Positions 25,025 to 28,930 of a stretch of DNA of 64,000 nt are shown here, one piece after another; the stretch's first letter is position 1; every line of letters begins with the position of its first letter. The position numbers and the translations under genes were made by a program. This DNA is from Candidatus Heimdallarchaeota archaeon (GTDB lineage: Archaea > Asgardarchaeota > Heimdallarchaeia > Hodarchaeales > Hodarchaeaceae). The notes beneath the pieces are model-generated. The model saw only the letters and a list, made by a program, of their open reading frames with translations. It made no database searches and was not told the origin of the DNA. The DNA is taken from assembly GCA_020353515.1 (NCBI GenBank), contig CP070695.1, positions 2,905,231 to 2,969,230 on the forward strand, in the 5' to 3' direction.

Positions 25025-25945
25025 GTGATTCAAAAAGTGTTTGATTCGATAGTCCCAAAAGTTTCACCATTAATTGTTGGAAGAACAAAGGAACTAGAGT
25101 TGATTGTTGCTGCTTTAGAAGCACGCAAACACATTTTACTAGAAGGGGCACCGGGAACTTCAAAATCCACCATTTTAAGACTCATTTCTGAAAACTCTGA
25201 ATTACCAATGTATATCATGGAAGGTAATGCGGATTTGACCCCTTCCAAGTTGATTGGTCAGTTTGATCCATCTTTGGTAATAGAGGCAGGTTATAAGCCA
25301 GAATTTTTTAGGAAAGGACCATTATTCTTGGCAATGGAAAAGGGAGGATTGTTGTACATTGATGAATTCAATCGAATGGCTTCTGATGCTAGTAATACAT
25401 TGATTAGAGCAATTGAAGAGAACGAATTAGTTATTCCACGTTGGGGATTATTGAAAGCTAAAGAGAGTTTCCGAGTGATATTAGCCCAAAATCCTTTTGA
25501 TGAGGTGGGTGTTGGAAAAATCTCACGAGCTTTATTTGATAGATTGATACGTATTAGTATGGATTATCAAGACGAACTAGAAGAACAAGAAATTGTCCTG
25601 AACGAATTGGGTGAGAACGAGAGTGTTGATCTTATAAAACTAGCAGTTCGTCTTACAAGAGCAACCAGAACACACCTAGAAATTAAGCAGGGTGCTTCTG
25701 TCAGGGGAGCAATTGATTTTGTATCTATGGCTTCTACTCTCATTCAATTAAGTCAACATAGATCAGCTTTTGAAATCCTGCGCGACAGCGCGTTTGCTGC
25801 TCTTTCAGGTAAGATTTGGCTCGATCCAGCAAGTGAACGAACTGCAGAGGAGATAATTGAGGAGCTACTACTTCAGATTATTCGGTCGTCAAATCTTACG
25901 CTCGAGATAGATTGGGAGAGCCTAGAAAACAGAAAAAAAAAATAG
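25025..25945 (+). CDS. MoxR-family AAA+ ATPase
   Basis: Walker A GAPGTSKS, Walker B LYIDEFNR, AQNP, ALFDR, sensor II SVRG. Ends in RKKK-stop on an A10 run. Confidence 0.93.
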   Translation: MIQKVFDSIVPKVSPLIVGRTKELELIVAALEARKHILLEGAPGTSKSTILRLISENSELPMYIMEGNADLTPSKLIGQFDPSLVIEAGYKPEFFRKGPLFLAMEKGGLLYIDEFNRMASDASNTLIRAIEENELVIPRWGLLKAKESFRVILAQNPFDEVGVGKISRALFDRLIRISMDYQDELEEQEIVLNELGENESVDLIKLAVRLTRATRTHLEIKQGASVRGAIDFVSMASTLIQLSQHRSAFEILRDSAFAALSGKIWLDPASERTAEEIIEELLLQIIRSSNLTLEIDWESLENRKKK

Positions 25946-26817
25946 GAGAAATTCATCTCTTCTCTAATTTAGATGAAAATACTGAGGGGATAGATGAGGA
26001 GAGTATTTCCTCACCAGAAAGAATTATTGCAGAAGTAGAGGCTGAAATTGACAAGATCGAATTGGTGGGGTCTGTTTTGCTTGAGCTCCAAGCAGAAACA
26101 AAACAAAAAGTCATTGATTGGGCAACCCAACTTATCATTAATACCACTTCTGAACAAGTAGGAAGACAATGGAAAAAACCGAAGTACATTTCTAAAAAAT
26201 TAAAGAAAGAAAATTATCTTGATTTAGATATTGATAAAACTATTGAAAACATTGTAGATAATCCTATTGACAAAATTAATGCAATTCAAGTCTTACATCG
26301 AGAAAAGAAGGGACACTCTGTTCTTCTCATTATTGATTCAAGTTATTCAATGTCAGGAAAAAAGCTTGTGATGGCAGCAGCCGCAGCAGCTACCATAGCT
26401 CATTTGTTTGACTCTACGGATATAGGAATTGTGCATTTTGGAACAAAAGGGACAATTCTAAAACATTTTGACGCTGAAGAGTCGATTCAAAGCACCGTAG
26501 AAAAAATCTTTAATCTTATTCCAAGAGGACTAACCAACATCTATCAAGGATTAAAAGTGGGTGTTGAAGAACTCGGACAGAGAAAACAATCCTCTTATAC
26601 AGCGATTTTACTCAGTGATTGTGATGTCAATACTGGTAAAATTCCCTCTGTAATTGCATGGAAGCTCCAAGGATTGAAAATCATCACTTTCCCACCTGTT
26701 AACGAGTTTGTTGCTGATATTTTACAAAAAGAAACGAGAGGAGAGATATTTCATACAGCTTATGTTAAAGATATTCCGAAAATTTTACGTAAAATTTTCG
26801 TTGAAACCATAGTATGA
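25912..26817 (+). CDS. vWA domain protein, probably reached by -1 frameshift from the MoxR gene
   Basis: MIDAS DSSYS...GLTN...LLSD; LDIDKTIE pre-vWA motif. No in-frame ATG before the MIDAS. Overlaps MoxR in the -1 frame. Confidence 0.88.
   Translation: MGEPRKQKKKIGEIHLFSNLDENTEGIDEESISSPERIIAEVEAEIDKIELVGSVLLELQAETKQKVIDWATQLIINTTSEQVGRQWKKPKYISKKLKKENYLDLDIDKTIENIVDNPIDKINAIQVLHREKKGHSVLLIIDSSYSMSGKKLVMAAAAAATIAHLFDSTDIGIVHFGTKGTILKHFDAEESIQSTVEKIFNLIPRGLTNIYQGLKVGVEELGQRKQSSYTAILLSDCDVNTGKIPSVIAWKLQGLKIITFPPVNEFVADILQKETRGEIFHTAYVKDIPKILRKIFVETIV
25914..25977 (+). other. Putative -1 programmed frameshift / slippage signal
   Basis: GGGAG at 25914-18; A10 at 25933-42 directly before the TAG; stem 1 GAGAA 25946-50 / TTCTC 25960-64; stem 2 TTCATCT 25952-58 / AGATGAA 25971-77 (pseudoknot topology). 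Confidence 0.65.
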
Positions 26818-26870: not shown

Positions 26871-27197
26871 TTAGGGAACAGTAGTTTTTACATCTTTAGG
26901 TGATAACTTTCTCCGAGTGATTTTAAGAACAACTCCAGCAGAGGTAGGATCAGGGCAACGGACAAATTCCGTAGTGACTCCCTTGGAATCAATCACTTTC
27001 TTATATGGGGTTCCCCCATATGTCCAGGGGAGTTTTCCATCATACTCTAAGACTCGAATCATTGTATTTGCACTATCTAAAAGCCATGAGCAAAGTTTAG
27101 CCTTGTCATCAGGGTACCAAAGCGTCTCCCCAGTCTTATGATAAGGACAACCACTCTCATGAATCTCTAACTCAAAAGAATATTTTCTTCTTGCCAT
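26871..27197 (-). CDS. TIGR04076-like small Cys protein
   Basis: Pattern CPYHKTGE...LCSW...CPDP...VVLKITR. Confidence 0.6.
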   Translation of the reverse strand: MARRKYSFELEIHESGCPYHKTGETLWYPDDKAKLCSWLLDSANTMIRVLEYDGKLPWTYGGTPYKKVIDSKGVTTEFVRCPDPTSAGVVLKITRRKLSPKDVKTTVP

Positions 27198-27328: not shown

Positions 27329-28930
27329 CTAATTTGTTCTTCTTTTTAGAAATAGAGAGCAAAATAAAACCAAAAGAATAGTCAAAAAACCTAATGCTGA
27401 TGTCATACCTGAGGTAATTTCAGTTGAATCGAAGGTTGAAGTGGAACTAATTAACGGAGTGGCTTCTCTTGTGGTGTTCGAAATGGCAGATGTTGGGATA
27501 GTAGGAGTGATGCTAGTAACTGGAGTCGTTGTAGGTGTTGGAAGTTCAGATTCATATAAACCATGGGCATAGTAAATATCTAACCATCCCCACCGATCCG
27601 TACCAGTTGCTTCGGTCCATACTACATGTGGCCTCTCTTCAGAATCAAGCTTGATAGAAAAATATTCCCCTGGTCGACGGAAATAGCTGTCTGTATATTT
27701 TCCCGAGATGGGTATGGGATCATGAAAAATAGGGGCCGCAGTCAGATTGTCACCAAATTCAATCATCCGATAATATGGTCGAAACTCAGTTGACGTTTCA
27801 TACATATCATAATACACAATATGACAACGGCCGAAGGAATCGATAGTCATTTCAGGATGCCATTGATCCCAATTATCGCGAGGATTCACCCGATACCGAG
27901 GGCTCCAGTTTTGTCCGTAATCGTCGGAATATTTGATGAAGACATCCCAGTAAGCGATGGAATCTGTATCATATTTACCAGCCCAAAGAGCGTATAATCG
28001 ATCATGGGTATCAAAGTGGATAACTGGGAACGTTCCCCGTCCTGCAATTCTACCTGAAGCTAAACAATTCTCACTGTCTAGATTGATGTCAATTGGCTCA
28101 GAGAAGGTCTCTCCCATATCCATGGAATAAGCAAGATACACATCACCCCAAGTAAGATATCCTTCAGTATCATTAGCAGTATATTGCATCCAGGCAACAT
28201 AAACATACCCATGACTATCTGTGATAACATAAGGCGCAAATGGGGCGATTGGACGAGTGATTGAGTCCGTAATCACACTTATTTCCTCAAAAGTCTCCCC
28301 ACAATCAGTGGAACGAGTTAAACGGACATAGGTGTCAATATTAGGAGAGGAAAGATCAACATCATCATAGACTACGTACACTGTACCGTCTTTACTGACG
28401 GTCATGGTTTCTTTGTCTGCAAAACCAGTCCCATTGGTTGCGGGTACAATATTCCAGGTTTTTCCATAATCAATACTTTTAGCTACTGTGATTTGAGAAA
28501 ATCCGGTAAGATTAATGAAATAATCGTCTTCATATTCAAGGTATGAGTAGTATAATGTCTCATGCTCTTCATCCCAAGCCAACCATGGATCACTCTGCCC
28601 CGCTTTCCATTCCAATCCTGGAGGAAACGGCATTAAGAATGGTTCCGACCATATAGTGCCATTATTCACGGATCGGGTAAAACTCACACGTTTCCCAATA
28701 CCGCTTTGTGTGGCTGCATCTTTCCATCCTGCAAACATGGTTCCATTGGCTGTAATTGCAAGTGTAGGTTCTACGTGGTGACTGTATGGCCAGTAGGATA
28801 GTTTTTCAGACAGCAAAATACTTTCAGAAAAAGCAACACTATTAAAAGGCTCAGGAACCTGTGTGGAAAAAGGAATAAAAGTAAAAGAAACAAAGAGGAT
28901 GACAAAAAGGAAAATATTTAATTTTCTCAC
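27329..28930 (-). CDS. BNR/Asp-box beta-propeller (sialidase-like) surface protein
   Basis: Signal peptide; Asp-boxes SVNNGTIW, SIDYGKTW, STDCGETF, SMDMGETF and SDDYGQNW; S/T-rich stalk; C-terminal TM helix followed by KRR. Confidence 0.85.
   Translation of the reverse strand: MRKLNIFLFVILFVSFTFIPFSTQVPEPFNSVAFSESILLSEKLSYWPYSHHVEPTLAITANGTMFAGWKDAATQSGIGKRVSFTRSVNNGTIWSEPFLMPFPPGLEWKAGQSDPWLAWDEEHETLYYSYLEYEDDYFINLTGFSQITVAKSIDYGKTWNIVPATNGTGFADKETMTVSKDGTVYVVYDDVDLSSPNIDTYVRLTRSTDCGETFEEISVITDSITRPIAPFAPYVITDSHGYVYVAWMQYTANDTEGYLTWGDVYLAYSMDMGETFSEPIDINLDSENCLASGRIAGRGTFPVIHFDTHDRLYALWAGKYDTDSIAYWDVFIKYSDDYGQNWSPRYRVNPRDNWDQWHPEMTIDSFGRCHIVYYDMYETSTEFRPYYRMIEFGDNLTAAPIFHDPIPISGKYTDSYFRRPGEYFSIKLDSEERPHVVWTEATGTDRWGWLDIYYAHGLYESELPTPTTTPVTSITPTIPTSAISNTTREATPLISSTSTFDSTEITSGMTSALGFLTILLVLFCSLFLKRRTN

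What the first reader, a model, noticed from the sequence alone, without database searches (positions are those of the whole stretch)
25025..26817. MoxR AAA+ and vWA genes joined by an apparently complete -1 programmed frameshift cassette (slippery A10 plus H-type pseudoknot)
Seen: MoxR ends AGA AAA AAA AAA TAG on an A10 run (25933-42). The vWA ORF lies in the -1 frame, is open across this run, and has no ATG before its MIDAS. Six nt after the heptamer A_AAA_AAA (25933-39), stem 1 forms from GAGAA 25946-50 and TTCTC 25960-64. Its loop TTCATCT (25952-58) pairs perfectly with downstream AGATGAA (25971-77), giving H-type pseudoknot geometry with a 1-nt L1. An SD-like GGGAG lies about 14 nt upstream, and an acidic linker (LDENTEGIDEE) follows the shift. 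Known: XXXYYYZ plus spacer plus pseudoknot is the canonical -1 PRF signal; an upstream SD stimulates the dnaX frameshift; frameshifted chlD-like chelatase genes produce both AAA-only and AAA-vWA subunits. Inference: one locus makes a 306-aa MoxR and a ~597-aa MoxR-vWA fusion at a set ratio. This would be recoding-controlled chaperone stoichiometry in an Asgard archaeon, using a viral/eukaryote-style stimulator. Transcriptional slippage on A10 is an alternative mechanism.
Basis: partly seen in the sequence, partly recalled or inferred. Interest (0 to 1): 0.9.

Follow-up and report, generated by a model that had tools for sequence, protein, structure and literature searches.

The report
Conserved poly-A slip site joining ATPase-vWA
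In this Asgard (Hodarchaeales) archaeon a run of ten A's, kept in every relative examined, separates an ATPase reading frame from a vWA-domain reading frame, so the locus most likely makes a short ATPase and, after a one-base slip, a long ATPase-vWA protein; the trick is already published for chlD chelatase genes, and the proposed pseudoknot is not supported.

Summary
The sequence features are all as described: A10 at 25933-25942, a TAG stop straight after it, the vWA frame at -1, no ATG before the MIDAS motif, and the quoted complementary segments.

The core idea of recoding is well supported by comparison.
- All 19 distinct orthologous loci keep an A9-A11 run at this domain boundary.
- 15 loci are split, always at -1, with the 0-frame stop 0-1 codon after the run. 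4 are fused in frame, in two branches that each sit beside a split form.
- Six split lineages have no junction ATG; none has lost the run.
- In this genome only 4% of KKK tripeptides are written as nine A's.
- This is the only place in the genome where a poly-A run joins two long frames.

The specific "cassette" is not supported.
- 13% of shuffles give an equally good pseudoknot, and the fold z-score is -0.14.
- No downstream structure is conserved in any ortholog.
- The GGGAG is simply the Trp-Glu codons.

Transcriptional slippage is at least as likely as ribosomal -1 frameshifting.

The protein is not chlD. It is a MoxR/midasin-type AAA_5 ATPase with a NorD/Rea1-like MIDAS domain. This is therefore a new member of a known kind of recoding. 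The scan has noted similar poly-A sites before, on other DNA.

The parts
25025..25945 (+). AAA+ ATPase ORF (0 frame), 306 aa, MoxR/midasin-type AAA_5. Walker A is GAPGTSKS and Walker B is LLYIDEF. It ends RKKK-TAG.
   Evidence: ORF list. Pfam AAA_5 72 bits, AAA_3 51 bits. Best solved relatives are Midasin AAA domains at E 6e-25, then MoxR 2r44, CbbQ and NorQ.
25933..25942 (+). A10 run: the proposed slip site for RNA polymerase and/or the ribosome. In the 0 frame it reads A_AAA_AAA_AAA.
   Evidence: Sequence. A run of 9-11 A's sits at the same place in all 19 distinct orthologous loci. Every Lys codon of the run is AAA in the vWA frame, against 68% AAA elsewhere in these genes. Only 4.2% of 405 KKK in this genome's long ORFs are written as nine A's.
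25943..25945 (+). 0-frame stop codon TAG directly after the run. It ends the short product.
   Evidence: All 15 split orthologs have a 0-frame stop (TGA, TAG or TAA) 0-1 codon after the run.
25861..26817 (+). -1 frame open reading frame. It encodes an acidic linker plus a vWA/MIDAS domain and would form the C-terminal half of the fusion (about 291 aa after the run). There is no ATG before the MIDAS motif. The only upstream canonical start is TTG 25912.
   Evidence: Pfam VWA_2 and VWA. AlphaFold model with pLDDT 83. Its best fold matches are NorD in NorQD complexes and the Rea1/MDN1 MIDAS domains.
26335..26349 (+). MIDAS motif DSSYS (DxSxS). The later Thr (GLTN) and Asp (LSDCD) are also present.
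   Evidence: Read. D131, S133, S135, T197 and D225 are invariant in 49 homologues.
25946..25977 (+). The complementarity is real, but it is not supported as a functional element.
   Evidence: 13% of 300 dinucleotide shuffles give an equal or better pseudoknot, and no ortholog shows a conserved or unusually stable structure. MFE z-score is -0.14, and the MFE fold does not use the proposed stems as written.
25912..25918 (+). TTG (25912-14), a possible independent start of the vWA frame, overlapping the SD-like GGGAG (25914-18). Both arise from the conserved Asp-Trp-Glu codons of the AAA+ frame.
   Evidence: The TTG exists only in the window's own subclade. In L038, L039, L042 and L045 the -1 frame is closed 3-6 nt before the run. 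The GGGAG is absent or displaced in L035, L039, L041, L042 and L043.

Best explanation
The A10 run is an evolutionarily maintained recoding site at the boundary between the AAA+ module and the linker-vWA module of what was ancestrally one gene. Standard decoding stops at TAG and gives the 306-aa ATPase alone.

In a fraction of expression events one base is gained. Either RNA polymerase adds an extra A while transcribing the run, or the ribosome slips back one base on A_AAA_AAA. Reading then continues as ...NRKKKIGEIHLF... into the vWA frame and gives a ~597-aa ATPase-linker-MIDAS protein.

No downstream RNA structure is needed or conserved. The run itself, and perhaps the adjacent stop codon, is the signal. 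I rate polymerase slippage somewhat above ribosomal slippage; both may contribute.

Inferred, not shown: the short and long products co-assemble into a MoxR-type ring that carries only one or a few tethered MIDAS domains, like NorQ6-NorD or the six AAA modules and one MIDAS of midasin.
For: Shown here:
1. All 19 distinct orthologous loci (55-94% identity, independent assemblies) keep A9-A11 at this exact point. 15 are split, always in the -1 relation, always phased NNA AAA AAA AAA/G/C with a stop 0-1 codon later.
2. Protein clusters in the 5.8-billion collection: 28 vWA-only against 5 fused.
3. The conceptual shifted product aligns without a gap to the fused orthologs at ...KKKM....
4. The run is selected. 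57 of 57 Lys codons in the run are AAA, against 68% elsewhere in the same genes and only 44-46% in L006, L007 and L044. In this genome only 4.2% of 405 KKK are nine A's, and only two A/T runs of 10 or more lie inside long ORFs.
5. The junction ATG is dispensable and the run is not. ATG is absent in WIN, L033, L035, L041, L045 and L046, on separate branches.
6. In L045 the 29 codons after the run have no ATG/GTG/TTG, and the frame is closed 6 nt before the run. Yet 15-16 of 30 residues match fused relatives, 5-7 of them through different codons. That stretch is therefore translated.
7. It is not an assembly artefact. This is the only poly-A frame junction in 4.94 Mb, and a contig of run X2 spans A10 unchanged.
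8. In-frame relatives keep A10 or A11, and stops flank the run in both other frames.

From the literature:
- AAA+-vWA 'magnesium chelatase' genes with a conserved -1 shift on A_AAA_AAR gave 10-63% shifting in reporters (PMC3711429; PMC5009743).
- A9 runs give about 50% slipped product in Thermus dnaX, and such runs are otherwise selected against in coding regions (PMC1088944).
Against: No RNA or protein data were available; no RNA run was listed for this DNA.
- 9 of the 15 split loci have an ATG placed exactly at the end of the run (ATGA overlap), and L037 has one a codon later (TAATG). The vWA protein could therefore be made separately by termination-reinitiation.
- In the window itself a TTG at 25912 could start the vWA frame.
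- Slippage by an archaeal RNA polymerase or ribosome on A10 has not been measured.
- Two branches have reverted to an in-frame gene, so any product ratio cannot be rigidly fixed.
- The loci are relatives, so the counts overstate independence.
Confidence: 0.7

Rival explanations
1. These are two ordinary adjacent genes after a gene fission. The vWA protein is made on its own, by termination-reinitiation at the ATG that overlaps the stop (ATGA) in relatives, and from TTG 25912 or a near-cognate AUA in this genome. The poly-A is a relic, or an A-rich initiation enhancer, and no functional fusion is made.
For: MoxR ATPases and their vWA partners are usually separate genes, for example NorQ/NorD and CbbQ/CbbO (PMC13036017, PMC4660213). 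9 of 15 split loci have ATG at the run's end and L037 has one a codon later. The window's subclade has an upstream in-frame TTG. Gene callers annotate all of them as two genes.
Against: The ATG is missing in six split lineages, while the run is never lost or interrupted by AAG in 19 loci. L045, L041 and L035 have conserved, evidently translated linker codons with no canonical start before them. The genome avoids such runs elsewhere. There is no SD before the junction. The in-frame relatives keep the run too.
Confidence: 0.2
2. This is the reader's exact model: ribosomal -1 frameshifting on A_AAA_AAA (25933-39), driven by an H-type pseudoknot 6 nt downstream and an upstream SD-like GGGAG.
For: The heptamer is in the correct phase and the complementary segments exist as written. 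My scan of the 60 nt after the run recovers this pseudoknot as the best one. The chlD sites are described as AT-rich slippery sites with downstream structures (PMC9227772).
Against: 13% of shuffles give a pseudoknot at least as good. MFE z-score is -0.14. Stem 2 is absent in the closest ortholog L032. 18 orthologs show no consistent structure, with z from -1.9 to +0.8. The GGGAG is a by-product of Trp-Glu codons and is not positionally conserved. Runs never fall below 9 A's, although 7 would suffice for this mechanism.
Confidence: 0.05
3. The break is a DNA-level artefact or variation: an assembly or sequencing error at a homopolymer (true A11), a recent pseudogenising deletion, or replication-slippage phase variation that switches the fusion on and off in the population.
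For: Homopolymers are error-prone and hypermutable. In-frame and out-of-frame relatives differ by one base at the run. The contigs of run X1 break exactly at the end of the run.
Against: 15 independent assemblies share the same -1 state, with different stop codons and flanks. A contig of X2 reproduces A10. The genome has no other homopolymer frame breaks. Both halves are intact and conserved, with invariant MIDAS residues. No +1 state was seen. Split forms lie on every main branch of the tree, most of whose deep forks are unresolved, which is hard to square with fast switching.
Confidence: 0.05

Closest known systems
Frameshifted chlD ('magnesium chelatase') genes: Antonov et al. 2013 (PMC3711429); Antonov 2020 MBE (cited in PMC9227772); reviewed in PMC5009743
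   Same: An AAA+ module, an acidic linker and a vWA module are encoded in two overlapping frames in the -1 relation. The shift site is A-rich (A_AAA_AAR) and under purifying selection. In-frame fused homologues exist. The logic is one gene giving a short ATPase and a long ATPase-vWA subunit. The case occurs in archaea too (Methanococcales).
   Different: The protein family differs.
- AAA_5/MoxR-midasin type scores 72 bits, against 20.7 bits for PF01078.
- TIGR02031 scores 33 bits against a cut-off of 500.
- The genome has a separate, unbroken ChlD-like gene scoring 607 bits.
- No CobN/ChlH gene neighbours the locus.
- The run is longer (9-11 A's, never 7-8), and no downstream structure is detectable.
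Thermus thermophilus dnaX and bacterial IS elements: programmed transcriptional slippage on A9-A10 runs (PMC1088944, PMC3711429)
   Same: A homopolymer of 9-10 A's is kept in orthologs, in genomes that otherwise avoid such runs. Two products share an N-terminus. Both two-ORF and in-frame arrangements occur among relatives.
   Different: Slippage is not demonstrated here. The host is an archaeon with a Pol II-like RNA polymerase. In the held library I found no report of programmed transcriptional slippage in an archaeal cellular gene.
Saccharolobus solfataricus fucA1: -1 PRF on A_AAA_AAT, the one experimentally shown archaeal cellular case (PMC8211752)
   Same: An archaeal gene is split into two ORFs at an A-rich slippery site. 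Full-length relatives differ by one A in the run.
   Different: In fucA1 the shift restores a single enzyme rather than making two useful products, and conservation is shallow (close strains). Here the site is kept across deep divergence and the short product is a complete AAA+ ATPase.
MoxR-vWA remodelling machines NorQ-NorD and CbbQ-CbbO, and eukaryotic midasin (Rea1/MDN1) (PMC13036017)
   Same: AAA_5 ATPase plus a MIDAS-bearing vWA domain.
- The AAA part's best solved match is midasin.
- Midasins are among the top 150 of 1.8 billion representatives.
- The vWA model's top fold matches are NorD and Rea1/MDN1 MIDAS.
- An acidic linker sits between ATPase and MIDAS, as in midasin.
   Different: There is one AAA module per chain, not six. 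The vWA part has no direct sequence similarity to the midasin MIDAS by BLASTP. NorD and CbbO are separate genes without recoding. The client of this machine is unknown.

Membership tests
fs-chlD (frameshifted Mg/Co-chelatase medium subunit) | AAA+ module of the ChlI/BchI type; the protein reaches the ChlD/Cob-chelatase family models | tested here: not met
   PF01078 scores 20.7 bits against AAA_5 at 72 bits. TIGR02031 scores 32.7 bits (cut-off 499.55) and TIGR02442 scores 24.3 and 22.9 bits (cut-off 779). A different locus of the same genome scores 607 bits on TIGR02442.
fs-chlD (frameshifted Mg/Co-chelatase medium subunit) | AAA+ / acidic linker / vWA encoded in two frames, with a conserved A-rich -1 shift site and in-frame homologues | tested here: met
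fs-chlD (frameshifted Mg/Co-chelatase medium subunit) | Works with a large CobN/ChlH subunit | tested here: inconclusive
   No CobN/ChlH-like gene lies beside this locus or beside 14 orthologous loci, and the neighbours differ between loci. The whole genome was not searched for CobN.
MoxR-class AAA+ ATPase with vWA partner | AAA_5/AAA_3 domain over the Pfam cut-off, with Walker A and Walker B | tested here: met
   GAPGTSKS and LLYIDEF are read. Solved relatives are midasin, MoxR 2r44, CbbQ and NorQ.
MoxR-class AAA+ ATPase with vWA partner | vWA fold with a complete MIDAS (DxSxS...T...D) | tested here: met
   VWA_2 and VWA are over the cut-off. D131, S133, S135, T197 and D225 are invariant in 49 sequences. 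Model pLDDT is 83, and the top fold matches are NorD and Rea1/MDN1 MIDAS.
Canonical -1 PRF cassette (slippery heptamer + spacer + stimulatory structure) | X_XXY_YYZ heptamer in the 0-frame phase | tested here: met
   A_AAA_AAA at 25933-39 and 25936-42. The phase is the same in all 15 split loci.
Canonical -1 PRF cassette (slippery heptamer + spacer + stimulatory structure) | Downstream stem-loop or pseudoknot that is more stable than chance and conserved or covarying in orthologs | tested here: not met
   Pseudoknot score is reached by 13% of shuffles. MFE z-score is -0.15 and -0.14. 18 orthologs show no consistent structure.
Canonical -1 PRF cassette (slippery heptamer + spacer + stimulatory structure) | Measured frameshifting at the ribosome | not testable with these tools
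   Needs a reporter assay or proteomics.
Programmed transcriptional slippage site | Homopolymer of 9 or more A/T, conserved in length among orthologs, in a genome that otherwise avoids such runs in genes | tested here: met
   The run is A9 in 3 loci, A10 in 15 and A11 in 1, and never shorter. Avoidance is shown, and the principle is in PMC1088944.
Programmed transcriptional slippage site | mRNA population with heterogeneous run length | not testable with these tools
   No RNA run was listed for this DNA, and only assembled contigs were available.
Midasin (Rea1/MDN1) | Six tandem AAA_5 modules plus a C-terminal MIDAS domain in one polypeptide | tested here: not met
   There is a single AAA_5 module per chain. 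The resemblance is at domain level only. BLASTP of the vWA half against a midasin found nothing.

The most novel reading that the evidence does not exclude
The run is a transcriptional-slippage 'mixer'. The archaeal RNA polymerase would produce a spread of run lengths, so split and in-frame alleles alike yield a mixture of AAA-only and AAA-linker-MIDAS chains. These would assemble into hexamers that carry about one tethered MIDAS domain.

That would be a one-gene prokaryotic counterpart, and possibly a relative, of eukaryotic midasin (six AAA modules, an acidic linker, one MIDAS), found in the archaeal lineage closest to eukaryotes. It would also be the first conserved programmed transcriptional slippage in an archaeal cellular gene.
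Probability: 0.2. Interest if true: 0.8.

Novelty: new member of a known kind. Interest (0 to 1): 0.5.

Why it matters
- Annotation: these loci are filed everywhere as two unrelated genes ("AAA family ATPase" and "VWA domain-containing protein"). They are better read as one recoded gene with two products.
- Recoding in archaea: recoding of cellular genes has been shown experimentally for only one archaeal -1 frameshift (fucA1, PMC8211752). A site this deeply conserved, in Asgard archaea and without any RNA structure, is a clean system for asking whether archaeal RNA polymerase or the archaeal ribosome slips on poly-A.
- Subunit ratios: it adds a second AAA+ lineage (MoxR/midasin-type, not ChlI-type) to the pattern of ATPase alone plus ATPase-vWA from one gene. 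This suggests a general answer to the problem of supplying few vWA adaptors per AAA+ ring.
- Evolution: the domain-level likeness to midasin in a Hodarchaeales genome may interest those tracing the origin of eukaryotic ribosome-assembly machinery. That link is weakly tested here.

Tried and rejected
- A scan of metagenome contigs with the vWA alignment found no relative. A second genome-contig scan with the fused alignment returned only three loci already in hand.
- No RNA holder was listed for the stretch. Only assembled contigs could be laid, so read-level run-length spectra could not be obtained. The X1 contigs end and start at 25944/25945, and X3 and X7 do not reach the run. I draw nothing from this.
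- A second genome position with a poly-A at a frame junction (G000 4299882, A9) turned out to be an ordinary gene boundary with an SD and ATG after a repeat-rich gene end.
- aragorn without intron mode found only 15 tRNAs. With introns it found tRNA-Lys(UUU) twice and tRNA-Lys(CUU) once. This only says that A_AAA_AAG need not be especially shifty here.
- Simple patterns for the 16S 3' end did not find the rRNA terminus, so anti-SD pairing of GGGAG was not evaluated.
- BLASTP of the vWA half against a midasin gave no significant match.
- More distant fused homologues (30-41% identity) have no KKK at the domain boundary, so the site is not a property of the wider family.
- Homology to the Methanococcales fs-chlD genes themselves could not be tested, because no handle to those sequences was available.
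Full report
**Observation.**
- The AAA+ ORF (25025-25945, 306 aa) ends AGA AAA AAA AAA TAG.
- The run is exactly A10 (25933-25942).
- The vWA frame is the -1 frame, open from 25861 to 26817. Its first ATG lies inside the MIDAS motif (DSSYSMS, from 26335).
- The quoted complementary segments and the GGGAG are at the stated coordinates.
- Pfam assigns the first ORF to AAA_5/AAA_3 (MoxR/dynein-midasin type) and the second to VWA_2/VWA.

**Organism.** The window lies in a single-contig 4.94-Mb genome. Its nearest relatives are titled Hodarchaeota, Heimdallarchaeota or Promethearchaeota MAGs, so "Asgard archaeon" is right.

**Orthologs.** A search of 40 related genomes found six orthologs in the same genus. 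Three are split like the window and three are single ~600-aa ORFs. I read the junctions and added loci fetched for proteins from the large protein collection. That gave 19 distinct junctions.
- Every one has a run of 9-11 A's at the same point: A10 in 15 loci, A9 in 3, A11 in 1.
- Fifteen are split and all fifteen are in the -1 relation.
- All fifteen share the same phase (NNA AAA AAA AAA, or a last codon AAG or AAC). A 0-frame stop (TGA, TAG or TAA) follows directly or one codon later.
- In several loci (L038, L039, L042, L045) the -1 frame is closed 3-6 nt before the run, so any shift must occur in the run itself.
- The conceptual shifted product aligns without a gap to the in-frame orthologs at ...KKKM....
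- At the level of 90% clusters there are 28 vWA-only entries and 5 fused ones.

**Is the run selected, or just AT-richness?**
- Outside the run these genes use AAA for 68% of Lys codons, and only 44-46% in L006, L007 and L044. Inside the run 57 of 57 Lys codons are AAA.
- In the window's genome only 4.2% of 405 KKK tripeptides in long ORFs are written AAA AAA AAA. That is the rarest of the eight spellings.
- Only two A/T runs of 10 or more lie inside long ORFs.
- Baranov et al. interpret this pattern as selection against slippage-prone runs (PMC1088944).
- More distant fused homologues (30-41% identity, about 600-660 aa) have no KKK at the boundary. The site therefore arose within this Hodarchaeales family from a fused ancestor. 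Borrarchaeum and Acidimicrobiales homologues are fused as well.

**Artefact?** This is unlikely.
- A genome-wide scan for A runs of 9 or more at a junction of two long frames found only this locus and one ordinary gene boundary. The assembly is therefore not littered with homopolymer errors.
- A contig of public run X2 spans the run with no difference.
- Fourteen other assemblies show the same -1 state with different flanks and stop codons.

**Two separate genes?** This is the serious rival. Nine split loci have an ATG exactly at the end of the run, a by-product of A + TGA, and L037 has one a codon later (TAATG). That is the classic ATGA coupling arrangement.
- Against it, the ATG is missing in six split lineages on separate branches: ATA in the window, L045 and L046, CTG in L033, GTA in L035, ATC in L041. 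The run is never lost.
- In L045 no ATG/GTG/TTG occurs for 29 codons after the run, and the frame is closed 6 nt before it.
- Yet 15-16 of 30 of those L045 residues match the fused relatives, 5-7 of them through different codons. That linker is therefore translated.
- In the window itself only TTG 25912 could serve as an independent start. It exists only because of the Asp-Trp codons of the other frame.

**Tree.** Split forms lie on every main branch, although most deep forks are unresolved. The in-frame forms sit in two places, each next to a split form.
- The in-frame forms keep the run (CTC+A10, or CGA+A11).
- They have stops immediately after the run in both other frames.
- Tolerance of plus or minus one base in the template, with the run always kept at 9 or more, is what a polymerase that produces a spread of run lengths would allow.
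- Ribosomal frameshifting would need only seven bases.
- This is my reason, an inference, for ranking transcriptional slippage slightly above -1 PRF. The data cannot separate them.

**The proposed stimulators.**
However, 13% of dinucleotide shuffles do as well.
- The MFE z-score is -0.15. The fold tool gives z -0.14, with 84 of 200 shuffles folding as well.
- In L032 (whole-protein identity 94% in the tree alignment) the partner of stem 2 is gone.
- None of the other 18 loci has an unusual fold, with z from -1.9 to +0.8.
- The GGGAG is the Trp-Glu codon pair and is shifted or absent in other lineages.

**What the protein is.** It is not chlD.
- The chelatase models score far below their cut-offs.
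- The genome has its own unbroken ChlD-like gene elsewhere.
- The AAA part's best solved relatives are midasin AAA modules (E 6e-25), then MoxR, CbbQ and NorQ.
- Midasins appear among the 150 best of 1.8 billion representatives.
- An AlphaFold model of the vWA half (pLDDT 83) matches NorD in NorQD complexes first and the Rea1/MDN1 MIDAS domains among the top hits.
- In NorQD and midasin a single vWA finger docks in the pore of a six-module AAA ring (PMC13036017). This makes a minority long form plausible as a way to supply few MIDAS domains per ring. That step is inference.

**Comparison with the known.** Conserved -1 shifts on A_AAA_AAR between an AAA+ ORF and a vWA ORF are published for "magnesium chelatase"/chlD genes.
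- They occur in bacteria and in Methanococcales. Reporters gave 10-63% shifting, and in-frame homologues exist (PMC3711429, PMC5009743, PMC9227772).
- The present locus uses the same logic in a different AAA+ family and lineage, with a longer run and no detectable structure. I therefore class it as a new member of a known kind.
- Earlier notes of this scan report similar poly-A sites in chlD-like and MoxR-vWA genes of other genomes. I did not test those.

**Verdict.** The pseudoknot/SD cassette is rejected, and the mechanism (polymerase or ribosome) remains open.

Noticed in passing
window 25025-26817, and proteins P0031, P0177: The AAA module's best solved match is eukaryotic midasin (E 6e-25, ahead of bacterial MoxR, CbbQ and NorQ). 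True midasins (AAA_lid_5/7 and MDN1_4th domains) are among the top 150 hits of the fused ortholog in 1.8 billion representatives. With its acidic linker and a NorD/Rea1-like MIDAS domain, the ~600-aa protein looks like a one-module counterpart of midasin in a Hodarchaeales genome.
   Followed up: partly
L043 1285-1665 and L044 2573-2887: In the subclade with the in-frame forms, a ThiS/MoaD-like ubiquitin-fold gene lies directly after the vWA gene. An earlier scan note on another genome (e1-5416808) describes an AAA-vWA-Ubl operon. The window has no such gene. A conserved 108-aa ORF on the minus strand (26871-27197) follows instead, also present in L032.
   Followed up: no
G000:C1:3248551-3250623 (outside the window; locus L047): The genome carries a separate unbroken 807-aa open frame that scores 607 bits on the putative cobaltochelatase model TIGR02442. 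This is a ChlD-like gene without a frame break.
   Followed up: no
G000:C1 about 4299820-4299960 (outside the window): A gene ends in a long GGGAAT/GGAAAT-type repeat (a Trp/Glu/Gly/Asn-rich tail), followed by an A9 run. An SD-like AAGGAGAT and an ATG of the next gene come after it. It showed up as the only other poly-A frame junction, but it is an ordinary gene boundary. It also shows that this genome uses SD-like motifs.
   Followed up: partly
window 25944-25945: In public run X1 the two assembled contigs that cover the locus end and begin exactly at the 3' end of the A run, overlapping by 2 nt. This may reflect low k-mer support or run-length heterogeneity in the reads. It could not be resolved from contigs.
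   Followed up: no
window 27329-28930 (minus strand): A 533-aa secreted or anchored protein with sialidase/BNR-like repeats (SxDxGxTW-like motifs), a Thr/Ser-rich stalk and a C-terminal membrane helix lies downstream. It was not examined.
   Followed up: no
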